Positions 1,024 through 17,737 of a DNA stretch of 32,000 bases are shown piece by piece (within the stretch, counting starts at the first letter, position 1; the number at the start of each line of letters is the position of its first letter). Position numbers and translations under genes: made by a program. Source of the stretch: Pyrobaculum calidifontis JCM 11548 (GTDB lineage: Archaea > Thermoproteota > Thermoprotei > Thermoproteales > Thermoproteaceae); contig NC_009073.1 of the NCBI RefSeq assembly GCF_000015805.1, positions 810,001 through 842,000 of the forward strand. The letters are read 5' to 3'. Below the pieces are notes generated by a model that made no database searches, was not told the DNA's origin, and worked only from the letters and a program-made list of their open reading frames with translations.

Positions 1024-2214
1024 GTGAAAAGGATAGCAGTTCTAGGGGGAGGTACAGGAGGCTTAATAGTGGCAAATTTACTTGCGCGCAATCTCCGTAG
1101 AGAAATTGTAAAAGGAGAGGTAGATCTCATGCTGTTTGACAAAAGTAATACGTATATATTAGAGGCGGGGCTTCTCCCCTATGTGGCACACGCATTTGAC
1201 GAAGAAGATTTAAAATATAACAAGAGAACTCTTCTCGACCCTGTAATTAAGTACTATACAGGGCCTAGTGGAACTATTACATATATTGACTTGAAAAACA
1301 GAAAGTTTAAAACACAAGATGGAAAAGAGTATAGCTATGACTACTTAGTAATAGCGCTGGGATGTACCTACGACATAAGCCAACCCCCCGGACTTAAAGA
1401 CGACTACCACACCTACTACGAGTTTGAAAAAGCGAAAGAGCTCAGAGAAATGCTTGAGCGTTTTACGGGGGGCTCAATTGTACAAATGGTTTACATGCCC
1501 GACGTTCCTATTAAGTGTCCCATAGCATCTGGCAAAGGCCCACTCCTAATAGACAGCTACCTTAGCCATGTGAGAAGACTGCGCGGCAAATACATGGTTA
1601 CGGTGGTGACCACCGTGGACCACCTACATGCACAGCCAGAGGTAAATAAAGTCCTAGAAGAGAGACTGAGGGAGAGAGGACATACGTGGATATACAACTT
1701 TGAACCTTCTGAGGTAGACCCGAAAAAGAAAGAGGTCATAGCAACAAACGGCGAGAGGGTAAAATACGACCTGCTAATAACCATACCCCTTCACAGAGGC
1801 CCTGAGGTGATTAAAAAGTCTGAAATAGGCGATCCATACGGCTTCTTGCCGGGAGATAGATATACGTTGACGTACAGGAGGGGGAAAGAACATTACGACG
1901 AAGTGTACATAGTTGGCGACGTTGCTAATATAGGCGTTGCACGCGCCGGCGCTGTAGCACACTACGAGGCCTACGTAGTTGCCCACAACATAGCCAGCGA
2001 AGTTAAAGGATTTGGGGACAAAATTTTGTTCTTCGGGGAGGTTATATGCCCCTACCTAGAGACGGCCTATACGCCCTACGATAAGGGCAGGGCGTGGATG
2101 CCGTGGTGGACTTATGCTAAAAACGCCAGGCCCTTCGTAGGCACCACCTGGGGCTGGTACCTCATGAGAACTTACTATCTCACAATACCTCTCACTCTGA
2201 GGGGGTTGATATGA
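1024..2214 (+). CDS. FAD-dependent pyridine nucleotide-disulfide oxidoreductase, sulfide:quinone oxidoreductase / NDH-2-like
   Basis: GTG start. The N-terminus has a Rossmann fingerprint (IAVLGGGTGG). A conserved-looking Cys lies in PIKCP and a late Cys in EVICPY, resembling the SQR/FCSD flavoprotein layout. The stop overlaps the next start (ATGA). Confidence 0.8.
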   Translation: MKRIAVLGGGTGGLIVANLLARNLRREIVKGEVDLMLFDKSNTYILEAGLLPYVAHAFDEEDLKYNKRTLLDPVIKYYTGPSGTITYIDLKNRKFKTQDGKEYSYDYLVIALGCTYDISQPPGLKDDYHTYYEFEKAKELREMLERFTGGSIVQMVYMPDVPIKCPIASGKGPLLIDSYLSHVRRLRGKYMVTVVTTVDHLHAQPEVNKVLEERLRERGHTWIYNFEPSEVDPKKKEVIATNGERVKYDLLITIPLHRGPEVIKKSEIGDPYGFLPGDRYTLTYRRGKEHYDEVYIVGDVANIGVARAGAVAHYEAYVVAHNIASEVKGFGDKILFFGEVICPYLETAYTPYDKGRAWMPWWTYAKNARPFVGTTWGWYLMRTYYLTIPLTLRGLI

Positions 2215-2696
2215 GTGAGGTAAGCGAGTTAGTCAAAGAGTTGAGGTCTAGGTGGATTGCCACTGAGAGAGTTGTAGCCACGGCGGCGGGGAAGTCTAAG
2301 CCTGTTCTCCCAGACGAGGTAGTGCTACAACATTTAAAGGCAGCCGCCGAGTTTCTTGTAAGATCTGGCACATTAGACGTCGTAGTTGAACTCTTGGCGA
2401 CGCTTGCAATGTTACAAGACGTTGTAACAGATAGAATGGTGGACGAGTGGGCAAGAAACCTAAGGAAAGTAGGCCTCCTAGCCGACAGTCTTACAAGGAC
2501 GTCGCTTCTAGAGGTGTTGTCTAATGCGCTACTAGACGTAGAGTTAGAAAGAGCAATTCTAGAAGTAAAAGACGGAAAAAAGATCTCGCTTATCACGCTA
2601 ATTTCTCTGTTTAACGACCAAGAAGTACGCCAAGGTCTCTATATCGTACTCAAGCTTCTAAAAGCGTTGGGAAAAGCAACTAAGACGCTTGAGTAA
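2211..2696 (+). CDS. Helical accessory protein, DUF1641-like by context
   Basis: ATGA coupling to the upstream flavoprotein. It is 161 aa, helical and Leu/Val-rich, with no TM segment. DUF1641 proteins typically sit directly after SQR/NDH-2-like flavoproteins. The family call rests on context and recall, not on a search. Confidence 0.5.
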   Translation: MSEVSELVKELRSRWIATERVVATAAGKSKPVLPDEVVLQHLKAAAEFLVRSGTLDVVVELLATLAMLQDVVTDRMVDEWARNLRKVGLLADSLTRTSLLEVLSNALLDVELERAILEVKDGKKISLITLISLFNDQEVRQGLYIVLKLLKALGKATKTLE

Positions 2697-2773
2697 AATT
2701 ACGAACACCGATATGTGTACACAAAGTATATTCTATGTACACTTGTAATAGTTATGATTAAATATTTCAAGAG

Positions 2774-3379
2774 ATGTGCCGATGCATGGATGTGATTTCT
2801 CTCCAGATAATAGAAACGTTGGCAGAGGCAGAGTTGTACAAAGGAGGTGCTTCACCTTATTATGTAATGAAGAAACTAAATCTCTACCCAGCTTTTTCAT
2901 ATAAACTTATTAAAAAACTTGAAAAAGAAAACTATATAATATGTAAGAAGAATAAAAAAGGGAGAATCTGCAACTTAACTCTTTATGGAATAGTTACATT
3001 ATTTAAAGAATACAATAAGAATTTAGCAAGACTACTATTTGTTAAAAAATTAAATTTAAAATTATTAGAAATTGACAGTGCAGATAGGGTCTTAGAAAAA
3101 TTGGCCTCTCTTGATGGGAATAACGGCTACATCTATCTAATTATTGGTTTTTGTCTACTCAATTTTTATGATAATGACATAAGAAAATTACTTGTTGAAT
3201 TATTGAAAGACATAGATTTTATGATGATAATAGGGGGCAAATGTGTATATATGCACAAAAATGGGGCTCGATATTGTTTTTGTACAACAAGTTTATATGA
3301 TGGTGAATGTAAGAAAGAAAAGTGCCCATTTAACGTGAACCTTCCATTAAAAATCTTAAAAGAGATATTCTCGCGTTGA
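2774..3379 (+). CDS. Putative winged-helix DNA-binding protein with C-terminal Cys/His cluster, encoded in a strongly AT-rich islet
   Basis: The N-terminal segment (SPYYVMKKLNLYPAFSYKLIKKLEKENYIICKKNKKGRICNLTLYG) looks like a wHTH. The C-terminus carries C-x3-H-x6-C-x-C-x8-C-x4-C. Lys/Asn/Ile-rich codon usage is unlike the neighbouring genes. Confidence 0.6.
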   Translation: MCRCMDVISLQIIETLAEAELYKGGASPYYVMKKLNLYPAFSYKLIKKLEKENYIICKKNKKGRICNLTLYGIVTLFKEYNKNLARLLFVKKLNLKLLEIDSADRVLEKLASLDGNNGYIYLIIGFCLLNFYDNDIRKLLVELLKDIDFMMIIGGKCVYMHKNGARYCFCTTSLYDGECKKEKCPFNVNLPLKILKEIFSR

Positions 3380-3446
3380 AATATAACGCCTCTTGTTATA
3401 CATGCTGTTGTAATAATGTATTTTAATATAGTTTATAAATACGCCT

Positions 3447-4865
3447 ATGTCTCAAACTAAAATCGACTGGAGTTCCTTGTATAAGAAGGAGGATTGGTGG
3501 GCTCTGTGGCTTGGCCTATTTGTGTTTCTACTAGCCGCCGCCTTTTTACTAGGGTGGGCGCCTAAGGTCAGTGTGTGGCTCGACCCAATGAAAAGCGTCT
3601 CTACCGCCAGTAAAGATTTTGCATATCTAGGGGGCTGGAGCATCCTCCTCCTCTACTTCTTTACTTTAGTAGTTTTGACTATAGCGGCGGCGATTATGAA
3701 ATTTGACGTGAAGGCCTACGCAGTTGGCTACACTGTTATCTTCTGGCTGTCTTACCTCATGTGGTGGATTGGACACAACGCATATATAGCCGCTACTCCC
3801 GACCAATACCCCAAGTTTGGCATAAACTGGAGTCTTAGCTTGACCGGCGAAGCCGGCTACATCTTCGCGCTTCTGCTGGGCTTGATCATTGGCAACGCTT
3901 TTAGAAAGCTACCAAAGCCGCTGGAGACAGCTGCCAGGCCTGAGTGGTATATTAAAACCGCTATTGTCCTCCTAGGCGCAGTCATCGGCGCCAAGTCTCT
4001 AGCTAATCTCCAAGTCGCGGCAGAGATTCTGACTAGGAGCCTTATAGCAATAGTGGCCGCCTACTTGATCTACTGGCCTATTAGCTATTGGGTCTCTAGA
4101 AAGCTAGGCTTAGATAGACAGTGGTCCGCCGTGTTGGCCTCCGGCGTGAGTATATGCGGCGTGTCTGCAGCTATCGCCACGGCTGGCGCAATAGGCGCGC
4201 CCGCGGTGATACCCGGCACCATAGCCTCTATAATTGTCATATTCGCCGTAGTAGAACTTATTATCCTCCCGTGGATAGCTGCACAGATTTTGACTTGGGC
4301 TCCCCTAGCCGCTGGCGCTTGGATGGGGCTCGCCGTTAAAACCGACGGTGCCGCCGCCGCGTCGGGCGCAGTGGCGGACGCACTCATATCGGTCGTGGTT
4401 CCAGAGGCTAAGAACTGGGTTACTGCGACGGCGGTTACAGTCAAGGTGTTTATCGACATATGGATAGGCTTGTGGGCTTTTATAATGGCGCTGTGGTGGG
4501 TCACTAGAGTGGAGAGAAAGCCCGGGGAGAAGGTGTCCGCCATAGTTATCTGGTTTAGATTCCCGAAGTTTGTAATTGGCTACTTTGTCACTATGCTTGC
4601 GCTTATGGGACTGGCGTGGTTTATGCCGCTTAAACAAGCCGCAGATTTAGCTAACGCAATTGCTGGACAGTCAGACGTGTTGAGGCAGTTCTTCTTCCTC
4701 ATCACCTTCACCTCGATTGGGCTAACTACAAACTTTAGAAAATTTAAGGAGATTGGCGCTGGCAAGGCGGTATTGGCATACGCCATTTCGCTGTTGATAA
4801 TTATAGTCATTGCACTGGCGCTGTCTATTGCCTTCTTTGCAGGCGTGCCGCTTCCCAAATCCTAA
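3447..4865 (+). CDS. YeiH/UPF0324-family integral membrane protein (putative sulfate exporter family transporter)
   Basis: About 10 or more hydrophobic segments. The motif SGVSICGVSAAIATAGAIGA matches the conserved ICGxSA core I associate with UPF0324/YeiH. Confidence 0.75.
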   Translation: MSQTKIDWSSLYKKEDWWALWLGLFVFLLAAAFLLGWAPKVSVWLDPMKSVSTASKDFAYLGGWSILLLYFFTLVVLTIAAAIMKFDVKAYAVGYTVIFWLSYLMWWIGHNAYIAATPDQYPKFGINWSLSLTGEAGYIFALLLGLIIGNAFRKLPKPLETAARPEWYIKTAIVLLGAVIGAKSLANLQVAAEILTRSLIAIVAAYLIYWPISYWVSRKLGLDRQWSAVLASGVSICGVSAAIATAGAIGAPAVIPGTIASIIVIFAVVELIILPWIAAQILTWAPLAAGAWMGLAVKTDGAAAASGAVADALISVVVPEAKNWVTATAVTVKVFIDIWIGLWAFIMALWWVTRVERKPGEKVSAIVIWFRFPKFVIGYFVTMLALMGLAWFMPLKQAADLANAIAGQSDVLRQFFFLITFTSIGLTTNFRKFKEIGAGKAVLAYAISLLIIIVIALALSIAFFAGVPLPKS

Positions 4866-4869
4866 TTTT

Positions 4870-5979
4870 TTAAATCCAATACAGCCTATAACATTTTTTA
4901 CAAGCTTCCGGCGGCTCTGGTGGAATTGTCTCTATTTTTCTAATCTCATATCTGTAGACGAATTCTCTGTAGCTCTTCTTCCTAATTATATCGGCCAGTC
5001 TCTCGTGTCGTATATTTCCAAAGGCTAGTCGCGGAGCTTTTTCGCACCTTTCTTCAAAACACCTTTCCGCCGACTGCGTAGAGAGGCCTAGGTATACGCA
5101 GGGGTAGACTGAGCCGTCGACGCCTATGAACAGCGTCGAAGTGGGGGCCTCTGGACACTCCACGTGTTCCCAAGGCGTGTATAGGCGGTGGAAGAGCGTT
5201 ATACCCACTTCCTTTGCCACTCTCTTTGCGGCTTCTACTACGGCTAACACGTCGTCTGGTGGTGGTTCAAACATCTTTGAAAATACCTTGAGCCCCCAGA
5301 GGTCTGGGCGGGGGATGTAGCTGAGGTTGCTTAGGCGTACCTCGTCCACCCCTGCCTCGGCCATTAGTTTTACGAACTGGGGCAATTCGCGGTAGGTGTT
5401 TTTCAACATCATGTATATGGCGACGGTTCTCGTCTTCGCCAAGGCGTTTTTCGCCGCCTTTACAAAGGTCTTGAGGTTTTGAAGGACAGTGTCGAAGTCG
5501 TTTCCCACTCTGACTCTGTTGTGCGTCTCAGCCGTCGCCCCTGCGAAAGTCACTGCCACAACGTCTACGCCTACTTTTGCAACATCCTCCGCTACTCTTC
5601 CCAGCAGTAGCCCATTGGTGGTAAAGCTGACTTTGTAGTAACGCCTCGCCTCTTTTAACATGTCTAAGAAGCGTGGGTGCAATAGGGGCTCTCCCCAGCC
5701 CTGTAGATGTAGGTGTTCTACGCCGACTTCTCTCCCCTCTTGGACTATTTTCTGGAAAAGCGAGAAATCCATGAACTCCCTCCTCCAGTCGCTGTAAAGT
5801 GCAACGGGACAGTAAATACAACGAGAGGTACACGCCGTCGAAACTTCGACCTGGAGTATGGAGACCACGAGACCTATCCTTTTATTTAATTTAAAACTAC
5901 TTAAGTATGTGGACGTCGCCGAGTTTAAGAGGTGGATGTTCATGGCGGAACGCACGTTGGAGTCCGCCATTAGGGACAT
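4870..5979 (-). CDS. Radical SAM enzyme with SPASM/twitch-type C-terminal auxiliary-cluster domain
   Basis: CTSRCIYC is the CxxxCxxC cluster motif. The C-terminus has C-x14-G-x4-C, then CFEERC and ACKKC. The first ~110 nt overlap the divergent HEPN ORF. The real start is probably internal, for example GTG near 5868, which sits ~20 nt from an A/T box at 5880-5897. Confidence 0.85.
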   Translation of the reverse strand: MSLMADSNVRSAMNIHLLNSATSTYLSSFKLNKRIGLVVSILQVEVSTACTSRCIYCPVALYSDWRREFMDFSLFQKIVQEGREVGVEHLHLQGWGEPLLHPRFLDMLKEARRYYKVSFTTNGLLLGRVAEDVAKVGVDVVAVTFAGATAETHNRVRVGNDFDTVLQNLKTFVKAAKNALAKTRTVAIYMMLKNTYRELPQFVKLMAEAGVDEVRLSNLSYIPRPDLWGLKVFSKMFEPPPDDVLAVVEAAKRVAKEVGITLFHRLYTPWEHVECPEAPTSTLFIGVDGSVYPCVYLGLSTQSAERCFEERCEKAPRLAFGNIRHERLADIIRKKSYREFVYRYEIRKIETIPPEPPEACKKCYRLYWI

Positions 5980-9884: not shown

Positions 9885-10412
9885 ATGGAGCCCGCGGCCA
9901 TCGTGCTTTACGCAGTCTTGCTCTTAGCCGCTTGGTACCTCCTGGCATCTTTTCTAGCCCGATTCGCCAATAGGAGGGTTGTGTCCAAATGCCCATGTGA
10001 AGTGGTGCGCTATCTGGGGGATCCCTCCTCGCTTTACGTGAACCTCAACTGCGGTGGGAAAAAGGTGGAGGTGTACATAAGGAGAGAGCCGTGGGACAAC
10101 CCCCTCAACTTGGCCGCATTCTATCTGCTCAGGAGGAGCGCCTACACGGCAGTGCGGTTTAGCCTGGGATTTGACGCAGGCGTAATTGACGCCTCGCGGA
10201 GCGGCGCTGGGAGAAGAGTTGGAAACTACTACGTGGTTAATATATCGACTCCCCGGGAGCTGGCGGAGAGGCTGTTAAGCCTCGCCGATGAGGCTGGAGT
10301 TTGGAGAGTCACAGTGTCCGGGGAATTGGTCCAGCTCCTATGGCGCGGCAAAGACTGCAGCTATGTGGAAAAGGCATTATCTATAATTAAAAATATAGCC
10401 AAAGAACGATAA
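9885..10412 (+). CDS. Hypothetical protein with N-terminal TM anchor
   Basis: The 175-aa ORF has protein-like composition and a hydrophobic N-terminus (AIVLYAVLLLAAWYLLASFLA). A T-rich tract follows the stop. I recognise no family. Confidence 0.55.
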   Translation: MEPAAIVLYAVLLLAAWYLLASFLARFANRRVVSKCPCEVVRYLGDPSSLYVNLNCGGKKVEVYIRREPWDNPLNLAAFYLLRRSAYTAVRFSLGFDAGVIDASRSGAGRRVGNYYVVNISTPRELAERLLSLADEAGVWRVTVSGELVQLLWRGKDCSYVEKALSIIKNIAKER

Positions 10413-10486: not shown

Positions 10487-12262
10487 ATGTTAAACACGCC
10501 GGCCCCCTATATCTTGTTGGGGCTAATACTATACTTTTTGACATATTGGTTCTACGCCAGGTGGGTGGACAAGAAGATTTGGGAAAGCGACCCCAACAGG
10601 CCCACGCCAGCGAAGCTCTACTTCGACGGCGTGGAGTACTTCCCAGTGTCTAAGTACGTGCTCTTCGGCTACCAGTTCAAGTCGGTGGCTGCGCTTGGCC
10701 CCATTGTGGGCCCCTTGACTGCCGTCCTCTTCTTCGGCTGGGTGCCTGCCCTCCTCTGGGTGATATTTGGCAACATGTTCATTGGGTGGGTACAGGACTA
10801 CAGCTCCATGATGCTCTCCATAAGAAATGAGGGCCGCTCAATGGGGCCGATAACCTACAGACTGCTTGGAGATAGAGTTCGGAAAATCTTGCTAATATAT
10901 CTAATCTTCTACTTGATAATTATCACGGCGGTTTTTGAGTGGGTGATCATCGACGTGTTGAACAGAGTGCCTGGGACCTTCACTGCCGTGTTGTTTGTAT
11001 TGTTCGGCGGCGTAATATTCGGCGTTCTTATCTTCCGCATGAGGATGGACGTACTCTTGGCGACCCTCATAGCCCTCGCTATAGTGTTCGTGGGCTACTT
11101 CACCGTGGCACTAGTTCCCGCAGTTAGGGCGCCGGGGACCAACTTCCTGGACCCGCCGGACTTCTTCAAGGCACACAACTTCAACCCAGCTCTGACGTGG
11201 CCTGGCACGTTGACCGTGGCCTTCTGGCTGGTGGTACTCTCCATCCTCTACTACATAGCCGCTGTGACTCCGATGCCCAAGTTCCTACTGCCCACCGTGT
11301 ACGTGGGATATCTTCCGAGCATTATCGCCCTAGTGCTCGTCTTAATTGCCGCGATCTTTACGCCGTTGACGGGGCTGACGATACAGCAGACGCCCGTAAA
11401 GGCTCTCTACGTAGATCCGCTTCAGAACCCCCAGGGCGGCCCGCTGTGGCCAATACTCTTTGTGACAATTGCCTGCGGAGCGATCTCTGGCTGGCACAGC
11501 CTAGTCTCGTCGGGTCTAACGCCTAAGCAACTTGAGTATGAGACAGACGCCTTGCCAGTGGGCGGAGGGGCCATGATGACCGAGGGCGCCGTGGCCCTTT
11601 CCTCCATCGCCGCAATAATGGTGCTATCACAGCCCCCGGCGGGCGCCGCGGCGTATGTGCAAGGTGCGACTCTGCTCACCACCAAGCTTCTGAACGTCCC
11701 AGACGTGTACATGAACATCTTGTACGGCATCTTCGTGACGGTGATGGGGCTTATAACATCGATGCTCTTTGTGAGAGTGTTCAGGCTGATAATGGCGGAG
11801 CTGTTTGAGGAAAGCCCGCTTGGCAACAAGTACATATCTCCCCTGGTGATACTGGCCATCTCCGGCTTCTTGGCGTTTGTGGGTAGCTGGACAAATCTCT
11901 GGATATTCTTCGGCGGCACCAACCAGCTACTGGCCGGCCTAGCGCTGTTACTAGTGGCAATATTCCTCGCCAGCATAAAGAAGCCCACGGCCTACGTCTT
12001 TGTGCCGGGCATATTCATGGCCATCACCACCCTTGCTGCGCTGGCTTGGGAGACGTACGTATATGGCCTATACGCATACTTAGGCAAGCCGATAGGGGTT
12101 CAAGCGGCGGTCGCAGCCTTGTACGGCAAAGACATAGTTACAATTTCCAACTTGATCTCCGCGGCGTTTGGAGCGCTGTTGCTTGTACTAGGCGCAATAA
12201 CCACGTATTACCTAATCACAGGCTGGGTTAAATACAAGAGGGGGGAGGCGGTAAAGAAATAA
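10487..12262 (+). CDS. cstA: Carbon starvation protein CstA family transporter (peptide/pyruvate uptake family)
   Basis: 591 aa and polytopic. It carries the GWHSLVSSGLTPKQL motif characteristic of CstA (compare GFHSLVSSGTTSKQ). Confidence 0.9.
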   Translation: MLNTPAPYILLGLILYFLTYWFYARWVDKKIWESDPNRPTPAKLYFDGVEYFPVSKYVLFGYQFKSVAALGPIVGPLTAVLFFGWVPALLWVIFGNMFIGWVQDYSSMMLSIRNEGRSMGPITYRLLGDRVRKILLIYLIFYLIIITAVFEWVIIDVLNRVPGTFTAVLFVLFGGVIFGVLIFRMRMDVLLATLIALAIVFVGYFTVALVPAVRAPGTNFLDPPDFFKAHNFNPALTWPGTLTVAFWLVVLSILYYIAAVTPMPKFLLPTVYVGYLPSIIALVLVLIAAIFTPLTGLTIQQTPVKALYVDPLQNPQGGPLWPILFVTIACGAISGWHSLVSSGLTPKQLEYETDALPVGGGAMMTEGAVALSSIAAIMVLSQPPAGAAAYVQGATLLTTKLLNVPDVYMNILYGIFVTVMGLITSMLFVRVFRLIMAELFEESPLGNKYISPLVILAISGFLAFVGSWTNLWIFFGGTNQLLAGLALLLVAIFLASIKKPTAYVFVPGIFMAITTLAALAWETYVYGLYAYLGKPIGVQAAVAALYGKDIVTISNLISAAFGALLLVLGAITTYYLITGWVKYKRGEAVKK

Positions 12263-12284
12263 AAACCCGTACACGTTTTTTCCT

Positions 12285-12533
12285 ATGAAAATCTTCGATA
12301 AGCTAAGGGAGGTGATAGAGGGTCTCACGGTCCACGGCCAGTCTACCGCGATACTTAGAGTAAAGGCGCAGATAGACAACTTGTTCATGTTGATTACCCT
12401 TGGCGACATGCTGGGCGTGCCCATCCTTCCGCCGTACTACTCCCTTAGGCTAATGCCCTACGTCTTTCCCAACATCCAGAACTGGAAGCGCTACATGCTC
12501 AGGGAGAGAGATGTCACAGACTTAGTGTCATGA
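12285..12533 (+). CDS. Small protein S1 (82 aa), YYSLRL-PY motif, paralogue of 14511..14774
   Basis: Aligns without gaps to S2 over ~77 positions (LITLGDMLGVPILPPYYSLRLMPY vs LTFGDFVGMPLLTTYYSLRLLPY). ATGA overlap with the downstream ATPase. It starts 22 nt after the cstA stop. Confidence 0.75.
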   Translation: MKIFDKLREVIEGLTVHGQSTAILRVKAQIDNLFMLITLGDMLGVPILPPYYSLRLMPYVFPNIQNWKRYMLRERDVTDLVS

Positions 12534-13534
12534 AGGGCCTTAAGGGACTTTTAGAGGAGAACCCGCGGCTCAAGGTATTCATCTATGCCGGCAAAGGCGG
12601 ATTAGGCAAGACCACCCTCAGCGCCGCCACGGCAGTAAAGCTCTCCTCTTTAGGCAAGAAGACCCTCGTATTTAGCACAGACCCCCAAGCCTCGCTCAGC
12701 GACGTGTTTGAGCAAAACGTGTTCGGCAAGGGGGAGGTGAAGATCGCGGAGAACTTATACGTGATGGAGATAGACGCGGACAAGAGGATACACGAGTACG
12801 TCTCCTCCATCAAGAAGAAGATCATCGACATGTACAAGCTCGACCGCCTGCCCCAGGACATCGAGGAGTACATAGACAGCGCGGCGGCTGAGCCGGCCAT
12901 GTACGAGTCCGCGGTCTACGACGCCATGGTTGACGTAGTCACCGAGGGGAAGTACGACTACTACGTCTTCGACATGCCGCCCTTTGGCCACGGAATTAGA
13001 ATGATCGCGATAGCAGACGTTATAAGCAAGTGGGTGGACAAGATCACCGAGCTTAGGCGGCAGGCCTATGAATACGGCAGAGTGGCCGCGTCGCTTAAGA
13101 GGAGCAAGCTGACCTACGAGGACGAGATCTTGCAAGAGCTGGAGTACATCCGGGGGAGGATCCTCAAGTTTAGAGACATCGTAATGAATACGGAAACCAC
13201 GGCGTTTCTCATGGTCATGACCCCCGAGAAGATGACTATTCTAGATACGGAAAAGGCACTTGAGATGTTCCAGTCCCTGGGACTGAAGTTGACTGGCATA
13301 GTGGTGAACCAAGTATACCCGCCAGAGCTCGCCTCTCGCCCAGATGCGCCGTCTTACCTAAAGAAGAAGGTGGAAGAGCAGAAGAAGTACATAGCCGAGA
13401 TAGCGGACAAGTTCGGTAAGTATGTGATAGCAGTTACGCCCATGTTAAACAGAGAGCCCAAGGGGCTAGACACCTTAAAAATCGTGGCCGAGGAGCTCTG
13501 GAGCCCAAAGAAGAGACTGGAGGACTACATATGA
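12530..13534 (+). CDS. ArsA/Get3 (TRC40)-family SIMIBI ATPase, catalytic motifs largely intact
   Basis: Deviant Walker A AGKGGLGKTT; STDPQASLSD (compare Get3 STDPAHNLSD); FDMPPFGHGIRMI (compare DTAPTGHT); VVNQVYP. It has no cysteine. ATGA overlaps at both ends. Confidence 0.85.
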   Translation: MKGLKGLLEENPRLKVFIYAGKGGLGKTTLSAATAVKLSSLGKKTLVFSTDPQASLSDVFEQNVFGKGEVKIAENLYVMEIDADKRIHEYVSSIKKKIIDMYKLDRLPQDIEEYIDSAAAEPAMYESAVYDAMVDVVTEGKYDYYVFDMPPFGHGIRMIAIADVISKWVDKITELRRQAYEYGRVAASLKRSKLTYEDEILQELEYIRGRILKFRDIVMNTETTAFLMVMTPEKMTILDTEKALEMFQSLGLKLTGIVVNQVYPPELASRPDAPSYLKKKVEEQKKYIAEIADKFGKYVIAVTPMLNREPKGLDTLKIVAEELWSPKKRLEDYI

Positions 13535-14514
13535 GACAGCTCCTATCTCAGCGGGGCATTAAGTACATCTTCTTCGGCGGGAAGGGCGGCGTGGGGAAGA
13601 CCGTGGTCGCCGCAGCCACGGCCCTCTATGCCGCCGAGAATCTGGGCGAGAGGACGCTCTTGGCCAGCTTCAACCCCGTCCACTCTCTCACGTCGCTCTT
13701 CCAGCAAGACCTCTCCGGAGGAGTCATAAAGCAGGTGCAAGGCGTGAAAAACCTCTGGGCGATAGAGGTGCAGTACGACGACATTGTGGAAAAGTACAAG
13801 GCCCGCATCACGAACTTGCTCAAGGAGATGTTGAAGATGGCGGAGCTCTCGATCGACATAAAGCCTCTTGTGGACATAGCCACTACAAACCCGGCCTTCC
13901 ACGAGGCGGCTGCCTTTGACAAAATGATGGACGTGGTGTTAAAGGAGGGGCCCAACTTCGACAGAGTCATCTTCGACATGGCCGCTGTGGCAAACGCGGT
14001 GAGGCTGATAGGCCTCTCGAAGCTGTATGGCGCCTGGCTTCAGAGGACGATAAAGATGCGCAGAGAGACCCTCTCGCTAAAGGAACAGCTCTCATTTAGA
14101 AAAGAGAAGGTGGCCAAGGAGATTGAGCAAGACCCAATCCTCCTCGAGCTACAAGACTTATACAACCGCTACATGAAAGTTAGAACCGTCTTGACAGACC
14201 CGTCCTCTACGCGGTTTGTCTTTGTAACAATACCCACAATCCTCTCCATCTCGGTAGTACAGAGATTCGTTGAAATGGTTAAGGCTTATGAGATACCGTT
14301 CGGTGGCGTCGTTGTAAATATGGTGATACCCCGCGAGGAGGCCGAGGCCGACGCCACTGGCTACATAAAGAGCAAGTACGAGGAGCAGGCGAAGAACTTG
14401 GAGCTGATAAGGTCCGCCTTCGGCCCCCACATACTCGCAGTGGTGAAGCAGTTCCCCGAGGAGATAGTGGGCTTGGAGAGGCTGAGGATGTTTACAAAAG
14501 AGCTATTTTCATGA
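13531..14514 (+). CDS. ArsA/Get3-family ATPase paralogue with degenerate switch motifs
   Basis: Walker A GGKGGVGKT is intact. Switch I reads SFNPVHSLTS (Asp to Asn) and switch II reads FDMAAVANAVRLI (TGH lost). VVNMVIP is retained. It has no cysteine. Confidence 0.85.
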   Translation: MRQLLSQRGIKYIFFGGKGGVGKTVVAAATALYAAENLGERTLLASFNPVHSLTSLFQQDLSGGVIKQVQGVKNLWAIEVQYDDIVEKYKARITNLLKEMLKMAELSIDIKPLVDIATTNPAFHEAAAFDKMMDVVLKEGPNFDRVIFDMAAVANAVRLIGLSKLYGAWLQRTIKMRRETLSLKEQLSFRKEKVAKEIEQDPILLELQDLYNRYMKVRTVLTDPSSTRFVFVTIPTILSISVVQRFVEMVKAYEIPFGGVVVNMVIPREEAEADATGYIKSKYEEQAKNLELIRSAFGPHILAVVKQFPEEIVGLERLRMFTKELFS

Positions 14515-14774
14515 AAGTTCGGCAGGCTGTACGCGACTTCTTTTACGGCCTCCTATTCCTAGACCTATACAGAGAGACAGCCAAGACGTACCTACAGTAC
14601 AAACTGCTGCTCCACTTATTGACCTTCGGCGACTTTGTGGGTATGCCGCTCTTGACCACATACTACTCCCTACGCCTACTCCCCTACTCGCTACAAGAAC
14701 TGTACGACCTAAGGCGCGAGGCAGCACGCGAACACGACATATTTGAAGAGCTGGCGGAGTTCGATGTCCACTGA
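14511..14774 (+). CDS. Small protein S2 (87 aa), YYSLRL-PY motif, paralogue of 12285..12533
   Basis: See S1. ATGA overlap with the upstream ATPase. The acidic C-terminal tail is EELAEFDVH. Confidence 0.75.
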   Translation: MKVRQAVRDFFYGLLFLDLYRETAKTYLQYKLLLHLLTFGDFVGMPLLTTYYSLRLLPYSLQELYDLRREAAREHDIFEELAEFDVH

Positions 14775-15195
14775 GTTCTCCTGGCACGCAATAGCCGTGG
14801 GAAACAGGATGCTGGGCCCCTACAACTTCCTAGTCCTCACAGCTCCGCCGACGTGGCGCATCGTCATAATGCCCATGGCCTCCGACGTGTTTAAACACAG
14901 AGAAGTAGACGGAGTCAAGTGGGTGAGGGACGGGGAGGTGATGCACTTTGTAAAAGACGGAGGAGAGGCCTACGTGTTAAAGATAAGCGTAAAGCCTGGG
15001 AGGAAGAAAGCCGAGGGAACCCCAATAGCCATCAACGGGCACCACGGAGTGTACCAAGTGAGAGAGAGGGGCGATAGGTACCACTTGACAATTCAGTTCT
15101 ACTGCGACCGCACAGACCGCACAGTCAAAATCACGCTTGAGGGTCTGAGAGATCTGTCTATTTTGAACTACGTGGGGCAGAGCCGTTGCCACTAG
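14764..15195 (+). CDS. Hypothetical soluble protein (143 aa) ending the ArsA-like operon
   Basis: The track ORF starts at 14743. The ATG at 14764 (MSTEFSWHAIAV...) overlaps the S2 stop by 11 nt. I see no TM segment and no motif I recognise. The 3' end overlaps the convergent taw1 gene by 38 nt. Confidence 0.6.
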   Translation: MSTEFSWHAIAVGNRMLGPYNFLVLTAPPTWRIVIMPMASDVFKHREVDGVKWVRDGEVMHFVKDGGEAYVLKISVKPGRKKAEGTPIAINGHHGVYQVRERGDRYHLTIQFYCDRTDRTVKITLEGLRDLSILNYVGQSRCH

Positions 15196-16300
15196 CCGGG
15201 GGCACAATCCAGCGGTCTACATACCTCTTCATGTTCTGCAAGACGACGATACGGCTGGGCTCGTCGTCGTCCATGTAGACAAAGTCGGCGCCTATCCTCC
15301 TCAGCTCCTCCAAGAGCTTGTATGCCCAAGCCTTGACCTCCTCGTGGCTCAACATGTCCTCCCTCTTCAGCCTGAAGGTGGAGTGGCCTAGGTGCATGTA
15401 GCTCTTTACCTCGACGAAGTGGGGGTTGCCCCTCTTGACAAGCTCGGCGAACTGCGGGATGTACCTCTCGTCGTAGTTCAAGCTCCTTATCAGAGTAATC
15501 CTCATGACGGTCCTCGTGGGCACCACTGCGAGTAGGTCAAGCGACTGGAGCCACTTCTCCCAGGCGTCCTCCCTGTTGTACACGGGGACGTTCACCCTGT
15601 AGTACAGCTCCTTGTTGGGGGCGTTAGTGGAGAGGTAGAGCTGCGTGGGGAGGGCGTCCTCTTCCCAAAGCCGCTTAATCATCTCTGGGTGCTGGCCGTT
15701 TGTGACAAGGAATACGGACTTGGTCTCGGGGAGCGACTTTATCAGCTTTATCAACTCTGGCAACTTTGGGTACATAGTGGGCTCCCCCGAGAGGGAAATA
15801 GCCCAGTGGGTAGGCGCCAGCGCCTCCTTGACGCGTCTCTTCCCCTCGGGGTGGCCCCAGTACCCCGACAAGAGGCGCACCCTCTCCTTCAACACCCCCC
15901 TCACGATCTCCTCGGGCTCTAGGTAGAACCTCTCGTCGAGGACAAAGGCGTCGAACTCCTCCGTGGGGCGCCAGCAGTAGACACAACGGTTGCTACATAC
16001 AAGCCCCACGGGGCTCATCTCTACACAGCGGTGGGAGCCCCCCGCCGGCGCGTTGTAGAACTTCACCTTGTAGCAAGACTTGCCCCCCTCGATGGCCTCC
16101 CTAGTCCACTTACAGAGCTCCACGGCGGCGTGGCCCACAAAGCCGTAGTGCCGCTCCACGAGCGCCCTGCCGGCAGATGCCCTAATCTTAATCCGCGGCC
16201 CCTCCAACACGTGGTAGCGGCCAATGGGCTCAACTTCGCAGGACACAGGTAAGCCCCGTTCTCTATATATAAGCTTGTCCAAAGGAACAGCGCAACACAT
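15158..16300 (-). CDS. taw1: tRNA 4-demethylwyosine synthase Taw1 (TYW1 homologue), radical SAM
   Basis: HYGFVGHAAVELCKWTREAIEGGKSCYKVKFY...SHRCVEMSPVGLVCSNRCVYCWRP and AISLSGEPTMYP match the archaeal Taw1 layout. The 470-aa track ORF has a non-homologous His/Pro/Ala-rich extension overlapping the divergent gene at 16325. Likely starts are ATG 16300, GTG 16246 or GTG 16210. Confidence 0.85.
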   Translation of the reverse strand: MCCAVPLDKLIYRERGLPVSCEVEPIGRYHVLEGPRIKIRASAGRALVERHYGFVGHAAVELCKWTREAIEGGKSCYKVKFYNAPAGGSHRCVEMSPVGLVCSNRCVYCWRPTEEFDAFVLDERFYLEPEEIVRGVLKERVRLLSGYWGHPEGKRRVKEALAPTHWAISLSGEPTMYPKLPELIKLIKSLPETKSVFLVTNGQHPEMIKRLWEEDALPTQLYLSTNAPNKELYYRVNVPVYNREDAWEKWLQSLDLLAVVPTRTVMRITLIRSLNYDERYIPQFAELVKRGNPHFVEVKSYMHLGHSTFRLKREDMLSHEEVKAWAYKLLEELRRIGADFVYMDDDEPSRIVVLQNMKRYVDRWIVPPASGNGSAPRSSK

Positions 16301-16324
16301 ATAAACGTGGGACAATGAGCAGGT

Positions 16325-16660
16325 ATGCCAAGCGTAGTCGGAGACGTGGTGGGCTTGTTGGTAGGGTGGCTTGTGAGCAGCTTCGCGGTGTGGCTCGCAT
16401 TGAAGATTTTCCCCGGCAAGCAGAGGAGAGAGGACTTCGTAGGGGCAATGATTACCGCGGCTGTGGGCGCCCTCGTCTACTGGTTTTTCCACGCCGTGTT
16501 CCGCATACCCGTGATAAGCGGCATATTGGGCTTCTTCGTCTGGCTCTACGCCCTTAGGAAGATCCAGCACGTCGGCTGGCTCGGCGCCTTAGCGCTCGCA
16601 ATACTCATCTACATAATAAACGGGGTGCTCAGCCTATTCCTCCCCACGCTAAAACTCTAG
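16325..16660 (+). CDS. Small integral membrane protein (about 4 TM segments)
   Basis: 111 aa with hydrophobic segments. A TATA-like CATATAAA lies ~22-27 nt upstream of the ATG. It is divergent from taw1. Confidence 0.7.
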   Translation: MPSVVGDVVGLLVGWLVSSFAVWLALKIFPGKQRREDFVGAMITAAVGALVYWFFHAVFRIPVISGILGFFVWLYALRKIQHVGWLGALALAILIYIINGVLSLFLPTLKL

Positions 16661-16733
16661 CCCTTTTTCACCCCCTCCCAGCGGCGTCAATCCCTCCATA
16701 GAAAACTTTATAAAGATCAGATGATTCTGTTAT

Positions 16734-17459
16734 GTGGAGAATCAGCTTGAAAGGCTGATAGTCGGAACACTTGCACACGGGCATTACGATTACAGCTTGA
16801 CTATTAGGAGCTTTGCGGAAGGCTCTGGCATGCCCTTCTCTGCGATTAGGCGTGCCGTGTATAGGCTGGAGAGGGAGGGAGTTGTCAGAGTGCTTAAGCT
16901 CAGCAACCAGTACGTGGTAAGGCTGAGGAGCGTTGAGAGGGCCTGGGAGCTCGGCTACTTAGACACGTCGTATGTCACATACGGCGCGGGCTACTTCGCC
17001 CCCTTCACTGGCTACAGGCGCGGCTTTTACCTAAGCGACGAGGCGTATATAACTCTCCCGTTTAGAATCAGGCGCCACGAGGCGCTCACGAGGCTCATAG
17101 ACCTCGAAATAAGATCCCGCGCCGACATGGAGCCCGCCCTGGCTTGGATTGGGGAGTGGCCCCGCTTCACACTACTCTTCTACCGCGCTACACTACAGCC
17201 AGTGGACAAGAGGTGGGAGGAGCTCATAAGACAACACGGCATAGAGCCTACCCAATGGCTCCCTCCGGCCTACGGCTTCTTCGCCTTTCTCATATACGCC
17301 GTGAGAAAGCTGACGGGCGCCGACTGGAAAGAGGCCTACTGCAAGGCCTTAGAGCTCGTCCGAGACTACGTGCAAGAGACTAGGGCAGGGACAAGCCCAA
17401 CGGAGGAATTCGTGGACAAGGTCCTTGCGGAGATGTCAAAATGGCCCTGTACAAAATAG
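16734..17459 (+). CDS. Hypothetical protein with N-terminal winged-helix-like domain
   Basis: GTG start. SFAEGSGMPFSAIRRAVYRLEREGVVRV resembles an HTH recognition region. It overlaps the next wHTH gene by 19 nt. Confidence 0.55.
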   Translation: MENQLERLIVGTLAHGHYDYSLTIRSFAEGSGMPFSAIRRAVYRLEREGVVRVLKLSNQYVVRLRSVERAWELGYLDTSYVTYGAGYFAPFTGYRRGFYLSDEAYITLPFRIRRHEALTRLIDLEIRSRADMEPALAWIGEWPRFTLLFYRATLQPVDKRWEELIRQHGIEPTQWLPPAYGFFAFLIYAVRKLTGADWKEAYCKALELVRDYVQETRAGTSPTEEFVDKVLAEMSKWPCTK

Positions 17460-17737
17460 CGAGGTCTCTCAGGAGAAGTAGGCTGAGGCTGGCCATACTC
17501 AAGCTACTGTGCGAGGCGGGGGAGCCCCTCTACCCAGCCCTAATAGCCAGGGCAGTGGGGGCAAGCTACGAAAACGTGTTAGGGGCCCTGCGCGGGCTGG
17601 GGAGGCGGTATAGGCGCGAGGAATCCCTCCTCGGGCTCGGCTTGGTAAAAGAGGTCAAAGTGGGGGGCCAGAGGCTGTACTACGCCGACGAGGAGATCTG
17701 CAAAAACCTAGAAGACTCGCTAAACGGCCTCCTATAG
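17441..17737 (+). CDS. Small winged-helix transcriptional regulator (ArsR/MarR-like fold)
   Basis: 98 aa. RLRLAILKLLCEAGEPLYPALIARAVGASYENVLGALRGL is a typical wHTH, followed by a wing (VKEVKVGGQRLYY). Confidence 0.65.
   Translation: MALYKIARSLRRSRLRLAILKLLCEAGEPLYPALIARAVGASYENVLGALRGLGRRYRREESLLGLGLVKEVKVGGQRLYYADEEICKNLEDSLNGLL

What the first reader, a model, noticed from the sequence alone, without database searches (positions are those of the whole stretch)
12285..15195. Five-gene coupled operon: twin small YYSLRL-PY proteins bracketing a pair of cysteine-free ArsA/Get3-like ATPases plus an unknown 143-aa protein
Seen in sequence: five + strand ORFs (12285-12533, 12530-13534, 13531-14514, 14511-14774, 14764-15195) are joined by three ATGA start/stop overlaps and one 11-nt overlap, so they form one translationally coupled unit. 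ORFs 2 and 3 are ~330-aa ArsA/Get3-type ATPases (GKGG[LV]GKT; STDPQASLSD / SFNPVHSLTS; VVNQVYP / VVNMVIP). ORFs 1 and 4 (82 and 87 aa) align to each other without gaps over ~77 positions, roughly 35-40 percent identity by eye. They share L[IL]T[LF]GD..G.P.L..YYSLRL[ML]PY and a C-terminal RE[RH]D. The order is small-ATPase-ATPase-small, a mirror arrangement rather than the S-A-S-A expected from simple tandem duplication. ORF 5 matches nothing I recognise. Established knowledge: ArsA energises the ArsB arsenite pump, Get3/TRC40 delivers tail-anchored proteins, and eukaryotic Get3 dimerises through a CxxC zinc site. This window has no arsB/arsR/arsD/arsC and no obvious Get1/2-like receptor. Both ATPases and both small proteins contain no cysteine at all. 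Inference: this is a self-contained hetero-oligomeric Get3-like machine with two dedicated small partners (adaptors, regulators or clients). I cannot place it in any described pathway.
Basis: partly seen in the sequence, partly recalled or inferred. Interest (0 to 1): 0.85.

Follow-up and report, generated by a model that had tools for sequence, protein, structure and literature searches.

The report
CstA-linked ArsA/Get3-like ATPase operon
The five overlapping genes are real, but they are the ATPase half of a widespread module tied to a CstA membrane transporter that was described from genome comparisons in 2010 and whose function has never been tested.

Summary
Five + strand ORFs are joined by three ATGA overlaps and one 11-nt overlap. 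There are two cysteine-free ArsA/Get3-family ATPases and two paralogous small proteins (34% identity, no gaps).

The unit is not self-contained. A CstA-family transporter gene ends 22 nt upstream, preceded by a single-pass membrane protein gene. CstA lies upstream in 62 of 64 related loci, and the ATPase pair lies downstream in 65 of 66. At least 588 species genomes carry a related small-protein gene.

Castillo and Saier (2010) described this cstA-cstX-arsA cluster, including two ATPases of 334 and 327 aa and two CstX paralogues in Pyrobaculum arsenaticum. They proposed that the ATPase energises CstA through CstX. The small proteins are Pfam DUF7990.

Added here:
- The two ATPases and the two small proteins are each ancient, distinct paralogues.
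- ATPase 2 always carries Asn in place of the switch-I catalytic Asp.
- DUF7990 is predicted to be a helical hairpin whose basic helix resembles the Get3-binding helix of yeast Get2.
- ORF5 belongs to a small β-rich family with a conserved His/Cys tetrad, found beside module genes in all nine further loci.

The function remains untested.

The parts
9885..10412 (+). 175-aa protein with one N-terminal transmembrane helix. It is the Thermoproteales counterpart of a roughly 170-240-aa single-pass membrane protein found beside cstA in bacteria. It is probably the 'CstY' type accessory protein of Castillo and Saier, but that identity was not verified.
   Evidence: Maximum 19-residue Kyte-Doolittle hydropathy is 2.38 at residues 6-24. 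Profile-profile match to the bacterial family: hhalign probability 94%, E=1.1e-7, 153 columns, shared EPWDNP/EPRDVP motif. A member of the family is present in 56/64 related loci. No Pfam family is recorded for it.
10487..12262 (+). CstA-family secondary transporter, 591 aa. It is the conserved membrane partner of the module.
   Evidence: PF02554 CstA at E=2e-98. It is 33-34% identical to the CstA of Chloroflexi modules. CstA lies upstream on the same strand in 62/64 related loci.
12257..12265 (+). A/T-rich TATA-like box (AAATAAAAA) about 24 nt before the S1 start codon. It is a candidate archaeal promoter for a leaderless S1-to-ORF5 transcript.
   Evidence: An A/T-rich box at the same distance is present in all six Thermoproteales loci. 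Promoter function is inferred from the known archaeal TATA position and was not tested.
12285..12533 (+). S1: an 82-aa DUF7990 (CstX) protein of the 'Sb' type. It is predicted to be a two-helix hairpin with a hydrophobic Pro/Gly/Tyr-rich tip and a basic C-terminal helix, WKRYMLRERD.
   Evidence: 100% identical to a Pyrobaculum calidifontis protein. There are 2230 homologues, and all 120 listed carry PF25952. It is 59-61% identical to the bacterial Sb paralogue. AlphaFold2 gives helices 2-42 and 50-81 at mean pLDDT 80.
12530..13534 (+). A1: a 334-aa ArsA/Get3-family ATPase. It is the catalytically complete paralogue, with P-loop GKGGLGKTT, switch I TDPQASLSD and switch II DMPPFGHG.
   Evidence: PF02374 at E=2.8e-72. 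It is 49% identical to bacterial A1 but only 31-32% to bacterial A2. Motif conservation was checked across 77 loci. The closest solved structure is archaeal Get3 3UG6, E=5e-57.
13531..14514 (+). A2: a 327-aa ArsA/Get3-family ATPase. It is the degenerate paralogue, with an intact P-loop (GKGGVGKTV) but switch I SFNPVHSL (Asn for the catalytic Asp) and switch II DMAAVANA (no Gly-His).
   Evidence: PF02374 at E=1e-57. It is 42% identical to bacterial A2. Every readable A2 switch-I motif listed across the 73 A2 sequences has Asn in place of Asp.
14511..14774 (+). S2: an 87-aa DUF7990 (CstX) protein of the 'Sa' type. It is distinguished by a C-terminal His-ending tail, EFDVH.
   Evidence: 34% identical to S1. 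Scores 113 bits against a DUF7990 HMM built here. Its tail matches the bacterial Sa tail [EH][FYH][HD]LHG[VLI]. Exactly two DUF7990 genes are present in 79/85 sources scanned: 84 loci plus the window.
14764..15195 (+). ORF5: a 143-aa β-rich accessory protein with conserved His93, Cys114, Cys142 and His143, ending in ...CH. These residues are a candidate metal-binding site.
   Evidence: 23 close homologues in Pyrobaculum/Thermoproteus. 67 clusters match at E<=1e-3 in a profile search of 1.84 billion representatives. The H/C/C/H positions are conserved in 91-96% of 59 members. AlphaFold2 gives an all-β model, pLDDT 73, pTM 0.71. It lies beside module genes in all nine further loci.

Best explanation
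The five genes are the cytoplasmic ATPase sub-operon of a conserved CstA-transporter module. The module consists of a single-pass membrane protein, CstA, two DUF7990/CstX hairpin proteins (Sa and Sb types), two ArsA/Get3-family ATPases (A1 and A2) and, in some lineages, an ORF5-like His/Cys protein.

Proposed mechanism:
- A1 and A2 form an asymmetric heterodimer like the two halves of ArsA.
- A1 hydrolyses ATP.
- A2 binds nucleotide but, with Asn in place of the catalytic Asp, hydrolyses poorly or not at all.
- Each small hairpin protein uses its basic C-terminal helix to hold one ATPase subunit, and its conserved hydrophobic tip to dock on CstA or the membrane.
- ATP-driven closing and opening of the dimer is thereby passed to CstA, to energise or gate transport, as ArsA does for ArsB.

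What is shown: gene content, paralogue identity, conservation of the neighbourhood, the motif asymmetry, and the predicted hairpin fold.

What is inferred: every physical interaction, the direction of the effect on transport, and the substrate.
For: - Neighbourhood: CstA lies upstream in 62/64 loci, A1+A2 downstream in 65/66, and the membrane protein is present in 56/64. The loci span Thermoproteales and many bacterial phyla, and at least 588 species genomes were hit.
- Ancient, fixed 2+2 composition: window A1 is closest to bacterial A1 (49%) and A2 to bacterial A2 (42%). S1 is closest to bacterial Sb (59-61%), and S2 shares the Sa-type C-terminal His tail.
- Asymmetry: A1 has DPQASL and G-H, while A2 has NPVHSL and A-N, in essentially every locus. 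By established knowledge, not tested here, Get3 D57N binds ATP but does not hydrolyse it.
- The small protein is more conserved than its partners: about 60% identity between archaea and bacteria, against 33% for CstA. It has invariant Gly, Pro, Tyr, Arg and Glu positions, and a nearly invariant Asp, in and around the hairpin tip and the basic helix. That pattern fits a protein-protein interface.
- AlphaFold2 predicts a two-helix hairpin.
- The basic helix WKRRMLRER resembles the Get3-binding helix of yeast Get2, EKRRLLRERR (sequence verified in PDB 3ZS9; RERR function in PMC8530227). None of 7332 control ORFs reaches 7/8 identity to KRRLLRER, against 38 of 165 DUF7990 ORFs.
- Castillo and Saier made the same proposal independently from co-evolving trees (PMC2963123).
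Against: - No experiment exists for any component.
- E. coli CstA and BtsT are reported to work as proton-coupled pyruvate carriers without any ATPase (own knowledge, not checked here). E. coli cstA has only the unrelated small gene ybdD beside it. An ATPase is therefore not intrinsic to CstA function.
- In Thermoproteales a TATA-like box separates cstA from S1, so co-transcription with cstA is not required.
- The closest solved relatives of A1 and A2 are archaeal Get3 proteins, not ArsA.
- The helical subdomain is about as hydrophobic as that of M. jannaschii Get3, so a Get3-like client-binding groove is not excluded.
- The Get2 resemblance is an 8-residue motif noticed after the fact, and it is weak in S2 (3/8).
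- The His tail of Sa, the His/Cys tetrad of ORF5 and the CxxC protein have no role in this model.
Confidence: 0.45

Rival explanations
1. Dedicated Get3-like targeting or assembly chaperone. The A1/A2 dimer shields the hydrophobic hairpin tips of the DUF7990 proteins, or segments of CstA or the single-pass protein, in a composite groove. It then delivers or assembles them at the membrane. The small proteins are clients or assembled subunits, not adaptors.
For: - The closest solved structures are archaeal Get3 proteins 3UG6 and 3ZQ6, at E about 1e-56, aligned end to end.
- The hydrophobic fraction of the helical subdomain is similar to M. jannaschii Get3: 0.31-0.39 against 0.31-0.37.
- The DUF7990 hydrophobic stretch lies about 20 residues from the C-terminus, with KD19 of 1.56 and 1.43. 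That is roughly a tail-anchor layout.
- The ORF5 model weakly resembles folds that include the Eag chaperones (EagT6, SciW), E about 0.2-0.3. By own knowledge, not checked here, those chaperones bind transmembrane helices.
Against: - The hydrophobic stretch contains invariant Arg and nearly invariant Asp plus four conserved Pro residues, and AlphaFold2 puts the turn of the hairpin in its middle, so it is not a single membrane-spanning helix.
- The A1 segment equivalent to the Met-rich lid region has 0 Met against 9 in M. jannaschii Get3, and a 5-residue deletion.
- There is no CxxC zinc site.
- A general targeting factor would not be expected to be locked to one transporter gene in 62/64 loci.
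- An obligatory hydrolysis-impaired subunit is unknown for Get3 homodimers.
Confidence: 0.22
2. Metal- or redox-linked function. The ATPase pair, the His-tailed Sa protein, the His/Cys ORF5 protein and the CxxC thioredoxin-like protein together handle a metal, metalloid or thiol-reactive substrate that moves through the CstA-like carrier. This would parallel As(III) capture by ArsA and ArsD.
For: - The Sa tail is His-rich in many bacteria, for example SDHEHHLHGV.
- ORF5-like proteins conserve H93, C114, C142 and H143 in 91-96% of members.
- A CxxC protein accompanies the module in 14/64 loci and in L086.
- DUF7990 proteins weakly match the NCBIfam 'cory-CC-star' family.
- The unrelated E. coli cstA neighbour YbdD belongs to the KCU-star selenoprotein family.
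- ArsA itself is a metalloid-activated ATPase (established knowledge).
Against: - A1, A2, S1 and S2 here have no cysteine at all, and the Pyrobaculum Sa tail has only one or two His residues.
- ORF5-like and CxxC genes are absent from most loci.
- No metal transporter or metalloregulator is nearby.
- The His/Cys tetrad could simply be a structural zinc site.
Confidence: 0.1
3. One reading: a self-contained Get3-like machine of five proteins that is functionally independent of the neighbouring genes.
For: - The five genes overlap one another but not cstA.
- A conserved TATA-like box precedes S1.
- One locus, L074, has Sa-Sb-A1-A2 with no CstA within about 7 kb upstream.
Against: - CstA is adjacent in 62/64 loci across two domains of life.
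- CstA, CstX and ArsA trees co-evolve (PMC2963123).
- ORF5-like and DUF7990 genes also occur beside CstA without any ATPase gene, in L088 (ORF5-like) and L093 (both; its putative CstA is a 587-aa gene with no Pfam on record).
Confidence: 0.05

Closest known systems
cstA-cstX-(cstY)-arsA gene clusters of Castillo and Saier 2010 (Int J Microbiol 2010:187373; PMC2963123)
   Same: The gene set matches: CstA, one or two CstX proteins of about 90 aa, and single-domain ArsA homologues of about 330 aa. Their Pyrobaculum arsenaticum entries Par1 and Par2 are 334 and 327 aa and 31% identical, with two CstX paralogues. The window has the same lengths and the same identity. They also proposed that the ATPase energises CstA through CstX.
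   Different: The system is the same. Points not found in the passages of that paper read here are the fixed Asp/Asn asymmetry of A1 and A2, the Sa and Sb subtypes with distinct C-termini, the hairpin prediction (the paper calls CstX 'single TMS'), the ORF5-like family, and the scale of the family (at least 588 species). I did not verify by sequence that every CstX in the paper is DUF7990, or that their CstY is the membrane protein found here.
ArsA-ArsB arsenite pump
   Same: An ArsA-family ATPase with two non-equivalent nucleotide-binding units is encoded next to a secondary carrier that can in principle work alone.
   Different: - Here there are two separate single-domain genes instead of one fused protein of about 580 aa.
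- There are no metalloid-binding cysteines.
- TIGR04291 scores 114 and 101 bits against a cut-off of 650.
- The carrier is CstA, not ArsB or Acr3.
- There are extra hairpin adaptors.
- No arsR, arsD or arsC genes are present.
Archaeal Get3 (M. jannaschii 3UG6, M. thermautotrophicus 3ZQ6) and the eukaryotic GET pathway
   Same: These are the best sequence matches among solved structures, aligned end to end. The basic helix of DUF7990 resembles the Get3-binding RERR helix of Get2. A hairpin of about 80 residues also recalls the cytosolic coiled coil of Get1 (own knowledge, a lead only).
   Different: - Two diverged paralogues replace a homodimer.
- There is no CxxC zinc site.
- One subunit lacks the catalytic Asp.
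- The lid segment has few or no methionines.
- The genes are tied to a transporter gene.
- No sequence or fold match links DUF7990 to Get1 or Get2.
Mycobacterium tuberculosis BagA/BagB (Rv3679/Rv3680)
   Same: Two adjacent, different Get3-like ATPase genes, implicated genetically in glycerol and nitric oxide tolerance (PMC10597346). By own knowledge, not checked here, they act together as a heterodimer.
   Different: The relationship is distant. BagA and BagB NCBIfam models score 57 and 39.5 bits against cut-offs of 400 and 521. I did not examine whether the bagAB locus has DUF7990 or CstA genes.
E. coli cstA-ybdD (and btsT-yjiX)
   Same: A CstA-family carrier gene is followed by a very small conserved protein gene.
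   Different: YbdD is PF04328 / KCU-star and is not detectably related to DUF7990. No ATPase genes are present.

Membership tests
ArsA/Get3/TRC40 ATPase family (PF02374, TIGR00345) | Profile score above the curated cut-off over the full length | tested here: met
   PF02374 scores 244 and 196 bits (cut-off 24.3). TIGR00345 scores 235 and 201.5 bits (cut-off 135).
ArsA/Get3/TRC40 ATPase family (PF02374, TIGR00345) | Deviant Walker A P-loop GKGGxGKT | tested here: met
   A1 has GKGGLGKTT and A2 has GKGGVGKTV. The motif is conserved in most of the A1 and A2 sequences from the related loci.
ArsA/Get3/TRC40 ATPase family (PF02374, TIGR00345) | Switch I catalytic Asp (TDPAHS/N) and switch II DTAPTGHT | tested here: inconclusive
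   A1 keeps the Asp and Gly-His (TDPQASL, DMPPFGHG). A2 has Asn and Ala-Asn (FNPVHSL, DMAAVANA) in essentially every locus. A2 is therefore a family member by profile, with a degenerate catalytic site.
True arsenical pump ATPase ArsA (TIGR04291 / NF041417) | Fused two-domain protein of about 580 aa that scores above the equivalog cut-off | tested here: not met
   Both are single-domain proteins of 334 and 327 aa. TIGR04291 scores 114 and 101 bits against 650. NF041417 scores 134 and 119 bits against 800.
True arsenical pump ATPase ArsA (TIGR04291 / NF041417) | Metalloid-binding cysteines and ars gene neighbours (arsB/acr3, arsR, arsD, arsC) | tested here: not met
   A1 and A2 contain no cysteine. 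No ars family appears among the 32 window ORFs scanned against Pfam.
Get3/TRC40 tail-anchored protein targeting factor | CxxC zinc-mediated homodimer | tested here: not met
   There are no cysteines. In the alignment with 3UG6, its C..C segment faces PELASRPDAPSY in A1. Two diverged paralogues replace one gene.
Get3/TRC40 tail-anchored protein targeting factor | Hydrophobic, Met-rich client groove with a TRC40 insert | tested here: inconclusive
   The hydrophobic fraction is similar to M. jannaschii Get3. The lid-equivalent segment has 0 Met in A1 and 2 in A2, against 9 in M. jannaschii Get3, and A1 has a 5-residue deletion. No structure of A1 or A2 was predicted.
Get3/TRC40 tail-anchored protein targeting factor | Delivery of tail-anchored clients to a Get1/Get2-type receptor | not testable with these tools
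   There is only a motif-level resemblance between the DUF7990 basic helix and the Get2 RERR helix. No profile or fold match was found.
cstA-cstX-arsA module (Castillo and Saier 2010) | A single-domain ArsA homologue of about 330 aa encoded with cstA and a CstX protein of about 90 aa | tested here: met
   The window order is cstA, S1, A1, A2, S2. The P. arsenaticum entries in the paper have identical lengths, 334 and 327 aa, and two CstX paralogues. The neighbourhood is conserved in 62/64 and 65/66 loci.
DUF7990 (PF25952) | Match to the family profile | tested here: met
   The cluster holding S1, and all 120 listed homologues, carry precomputed PF25952. S2 scores 113 bits against an HMM built here from family members. 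The local Pfam copy reported no family for S1, for S2, or for two bacterial proteins whose precomputed annotation is PF25952, so it appears not to hold this model.
BagA/BagB (NF053622 / NF053621) | Score above the equivalog cut-off | tested here: not met
   Best scores are 57 bits (BagA, cut-off 400) and 39.5 bits (BagB, cut-off 521).
YbdD/YjiX (PF04328, KCU-star) | Match to the family profile | tested here: not met
   S1, S2 and the bacterial DUF7990 proteins give no PF04328 hit even at E<=1. YbdD itself scores E=1.6e-30.

The most novel reading that the evidence does not exclude
DUF7990 hairpin proteins are prokaryotic counterparts of the Get1/Get2 receptor elements: a cytosolic helical hairpin plus an RERR-type basic helix. 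They dock an asymmetric Get3-like heterodimer at the membrane next to CstA. If so, the Get3-receptor binding mode predates eukaryotes, and this would be the first candidate membrane receptor for a prokaryotic Get3 homologue. It could be tested directly by binding assays with mutants of the conserved LRER residues.
Probability: 0.12. Interest if true: 0.75.

Novelty: already known. Interest (0 to 1): 0.4.

Why it matters
This module is one of the larger groups of ArsA/Get3-family ATPases with no tested function. Relatives of its small protein are encoded in at least 588 species genomes, in hyperthermophilic archaea and in many soil bacterial phyla. If the ATPase really powers or gates a CstA carrier, it would be a second case, after ArsAB, of a secondary transporter converted into an ATP-dependent one. 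It would also revise how CstA-family 'carbon starvation' transporters are understood.

Several features described here give concrete handles for experiments:
- the built-in Asp/Asn asymmetry between A1 and A2;
- the very strongly conserved hairpin adaptors;
- the ORF5-like His/Cys protein.

As a discovery, however, the gene cluster and the main hypothesis were published in 2010.

Tried and rejected
- Natural fusions as evidence of interaction. Locus L084 shows Sa-Sb and A1-A2 in single ORFs, but the A2 domain is cut at model position 197 of about 323 and the Sa tail is out of frame. These look like frameshift errors in a metagenome assembly, so they were rejected.
- DUF7990 profile against all PDB sequences. 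Only a chance hit to maltase-glucoamylase, E=0.19.
- Foldseek of the S1 hairpin model against PDB. Nothing better than E=8.
- ORF5 against the membrane protein families. hhalign probability below 1%, so they are unrelated.
- Relation of DUF7990 to E. coli YbdD. None detected.
- Literature searches for DUF7990, CC-star, CstX, and CstA with Get3-like or ArsA-like terms after 2010 found nothing relevant.
- The word-indexed homology search with the 175-aa membrane protein found one close hit and no family name.
- Comparing the helical subdomains to decide for or against a Get3-type groove was inconclusive.
- The sigma-70 promoter scanner was not used, because the organism is an archaeon.
- No multimer prediction was possible with the tools.

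Full report
**1. The observation**

The window comes from Pyrobaculum calidifontis or a very close relative: ORF1 is 100% identical to a protein of that species.

The three ATGA start/stop overlaps and the 11-nt overlap are in the sequence. The same overlapped gene order recurs in five other Pyrobaculum/Thermoproteus genomes (L005-L009), so it is conserved and not a chance layout.

ORF2 (A1) and ORF3 (A2) are clear ArsA/Get3-family ATPases: PF02374 at E=2.8e-72 and 1e-57, with TIGR00345 above its cut-off. They are 31% identical to each other.

ORF1 (S1) and ORF4 (S2) align over 77 residues without gaps at 34% identity, E=1e-13. S1, A1, A2 and S2 contain no cysteine. The ATG at 14764 gives 143 aa for ORF5, which matches its homologues.

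**2.

A 591-aa CstA-family transporter gene (10487-12262; PF02554, E=2e-98) stops 22 nt before S1. Upstream of it, 9885-10412 encodes a 175-aa protein with one N-terminal transmembrane helix.

The small proteins are not orphans. S1 has 2230 homologues, and all 120 listed are assigned to Pfam PF25952, which is DUF7990. Bacterial members are about 60% identical to the archaeal protein.

In Chloroflexi metagenome contigs the order is [small CxxC protein]-CstA-DUF7990-DUF7990-ArsA-ArsA.

**3. How conserved the module is**

I fetched 80 loci: five from Thermoproteales and the rest from bacteria. The bacterial loci include Acidobacteriota, Chloroflexota, several proteobacterial classes, Actinomycetota, Gemmatimonadota and Rokubacteria.

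I annotated these loci with my own ORF calling plus phmmer. The counts were:

| Feature | Loci with feature / loci with enough flank |
|---|---|
| CstA upstream on the same strand | 62 / 64 |
| A1 and A2 downstream | 65 / 66 |
| Single-pass membrane protein of about 170-240 aa | 56 / 64 |
| CxxC thioredoxin-like protein | 14 / 64 |

Exactly two DUF7990 genes are present in 79 of 85 sources scanned, counting 84 loci plus the window.

The window's 175-aa protein is the homologue of the bacterial membrane protein. hhalign gives 94% probability and E=1.1e-7 over 153 columns, with a shared EPWDNP/EPRDVP motif.

**4. The paralogues are ancient and differentiated**

- Window A1 is 49% identical to bacterial A1 but 31-32% to bacterial A2.
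- Window A2 is 42% identical to bacterial A2.
- S1 is 59-61% identical to the bacterial 'Sb' paralogue, which ends ...REKDV[ST]DAMF.
- S2 shares a His-ending C-terminal tail with the bacterial 'Sa' paralogue: EFDVH here, against [EH][FYH][HD]LHG[VLI] in bacteria, often His-rich as in SDHEHHLHGV.

Most bacterial loci sampled have Sa-Sb-A1-A2. The window's order Sb-A1-A2-Sa also appears in an unrelated low-GC locus, L086.

**5. Built-in asymmetry of the ATPases**

Across the loci:
- A1 keeps the switch-I Asp (DPQASL) and a Gly-His in switch II.
- A2 always has Asn (NPVHSL) and Ala-Asn (DTAPTANARRLL, or DMAAVANAVRLI in Thermoproteales).
- Both keep the P-loop.

The Asp corresponds to Get3 D57; compare STDPAHSL in the aligned archaeal Get3. 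From established knowledge, not tested here, D57N lets Get3 bind ATP but not hydrolyse it.

The likely complex is thus a heterodimer with one competent catalytic site and one impaired site. This recalls the non-equivalent halves of ArsA.

**6. The small proteins**

AlphaFold2, run with a 70-sequence alignment, predicts two long helices (2-42 and 50-81) joined by the GVPILPP turn. Mean pLDDT is 80.

The hydrophobic stretch that led earlier authors to call CstX a 'single TMS' protein straddles the turn. It contains invariant Gly, Pro, Tyr and Arg positions and a nearly invariant Asp. Its 19-residue hydropathy maximum is only 1.56. I read it as a hairpin with a conserved hydrophobic tip rather than a membrane-spanning helix. 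That tip could dock on a protein or dip into the membrane.

The second helix carries the near-invariant W[KR]RR[MV]LRE[RK]D. This resembles the Get3-binding helix of yeast Get2, EKRRLLRERRQ. I verified the Get2 sequence in PDB 3ZS9 and 3SJD. Its RERR residues are the ones whose mutation disrupts binding to Get3 (PMC8530227).

As a control, no ORF among 7332 non-DUF7990 ORFs from the same loci reaches 7/8 identity to KRRLLRER. Among DUF7990 ORFs, 38 of 165 do, and 148 of 165 reach 6/8.

This remains a short motif noticed after the fact. Neither profile search nor fold search links DUF7990 to any solved protein. It is a lead, not a membership.

**7. ORF5**

ORF5 has 23 close homologues, all named ones from Pyrobaculum/Thermoproteus. 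A profile search of 1.84 billion representatives found 67 clusters, mostly of 155-170 aa.

I examined nine further loci carrying a member: L079, L086/L087 (duplicates of one locus) and L088-L094. In every one the gene sits beside module genes (CstA, DUF7990 and/or ArsA-like), often directly next to a DUF7990 gene.

The family conserves His93, Cys114, Cys142 and His143 in 91-96% of 59 members and usually ends in ...CH.

The AlphaFold2 model is all-β, with pLDDT 73 and pTM 0.71. His93 and Cys114 lie at opposite ends of one β-hairpin, so they would be neighbours in space. I infer a metal site. Fold matches are too weak to name a fold.

ORF5 is thus a real accessory component found in only some lineages, with no Pfam family.

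**8. Prior art**

Castillo and Saier (2010, PMC2963123) reported 26 cstA-arsA associations in bacteria and archaea. They named the roughly 90-aa protein CstX and a roughly 210-aa single-TMS archaeal protein CstY.

For Pyrobaculum arsenaticum they listed two adjacent ArsA homologues of 334 and 327 aa that are 31% identical, plus two CstX paralogues. They showed co-evolving trees, and proposed that the ATPase energises CstA with CstX as the linker.

I found no later paper on the topic in the searchable library and no experimental test.

**9. Mechanism**

The explanation I favour, at about 0.45, is the ArsAB-like one. An asymmetric A1/A2 dimer is tethered by the two hairpin adaptors to CstA, possibly with help from the single-pass protein. 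It uses ATP to energise or gate transport.

The main rival, at about 0.22, is a Get3-like chaperone or assembly role for the hairpins or for CstA. It remains viable for two reasons. The nearest solved relatives are archaeal Get3 proteins. The helical subdomain is about as hydrophobic as that of M. jannaschii Get3, although it is poor in methionine.

A metal or redox role, at about 0.1, would account for the His tail, the His/Cys tetrad and the CxxC protein. It lacks support from the cysteine-free core proteins.

In Thermoproteales a conserved TATA-like box about 24-28 nt before the S1 start codon suggests that S1-to-ORF5 has its own leaderless transcript directly after cstA.

**10. Verdict**

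The sequence observation is accurate and the five genes do belong together. They are the ATPase half of a module that has already been described and is very widespread but functionally untested. They are not a new self-contained machine.

The novelty rating is 'already known'. Interest is moderate because the function is still open and several new handles emerged:
- the A2 Asn substitution;
- the Sa and Sb subtypes;
- the hairpin with a Get2-like helix;
- the ORF5-like His/Cys family.

Noticed in passing
L001:3338-3781, L004:2512-2901, L086:6494-6886: A protein of about 130-150 aa with an HCxHCE motif and weak thioredoxin/DUF1525 similarity sits just upstream of cstA in 14/64 loci. In L086 it sits downstream of the ORF5-like gene. 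It has no Pfam family above threshold and may be another accessory component.
   Followed up: partly
L036:7170-8231: A Chloroflexota genome has an orphan Sb-type DUF7990 gene with no CstA or ArsA-like gene within about 3-8 kb. L074 has Sa-Sb-A1-A2 but no CstA within about 7 kb upstream. These are the only exceptions in the sample.
   Followed up: partly
L088:2155-5480 and L093:3-3338: ORF5-like genes also occur beside a (putative) CstA gene with no ArsA-like gene in the stretch shown, and in L093 next to a DUF7990 gene. In L088 the cstA gene is called as two halves. In L093 the 587-aa gene has no Pfam on record and is only presumed to be CstA. This suggests the accessory proteins relate to CstA itself and not only to the ATPase.
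   Followed up: no
window 15158-15195: The convergent Taw1/TYW1-like radical-SAM gene (15158-16570, minus strand; PF08608 and PF04055) overlaps the 3' end of ORF5 by 38 nt. The 470-aa ORF listed probably starts too far upstream.
   Followed up: no
window 1-4900: This stretch has lower G+C (0.40-0.50 against about 0.52-0.63 elsewhere). It encodes a pyridine nucleotide-disulphide oxidoreductase, a DUF1641 protein, a winged-helix protein and a PF03601 membrane protein. It may be an acquired or differently composed block.
   Followed up: no
window 16325-17737: Three small ORFs lie here. One is a 111-aa four-TM protein with a weak holin-superfamily-IV match, below the Pfam cut-off. One is a 241-aa ORF with no family. 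One is a 98-aa EarA-like protein. Their function is unclear.
   Followed up: no
NCBIfam NF041419, matched by window 12285-12533 and 14511-14774: DUF7990 proteins weakly match the 'cory-CC-star' family (E=1.4e-9 and 3.8e-4, below its cut-off). The unrelated E. coli cstA neighbour YbdD belongs to the 'KCU-star' selenoprotein family. Judging from the family names alone, two unrelated families of small CstA-linked proteins may both have reactive C-terminal residues. This recurring theme is unexplained.
   Followed up: partly
L084:7008-10310: An alphaproteobacterial metagenome assembly shows Sa-Sb and A1-A2 as single ORFs. The truncated A2 domain and the out-of-frame Sa tail point to frameshift errors rather than true fusions.
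   Followed up: yes
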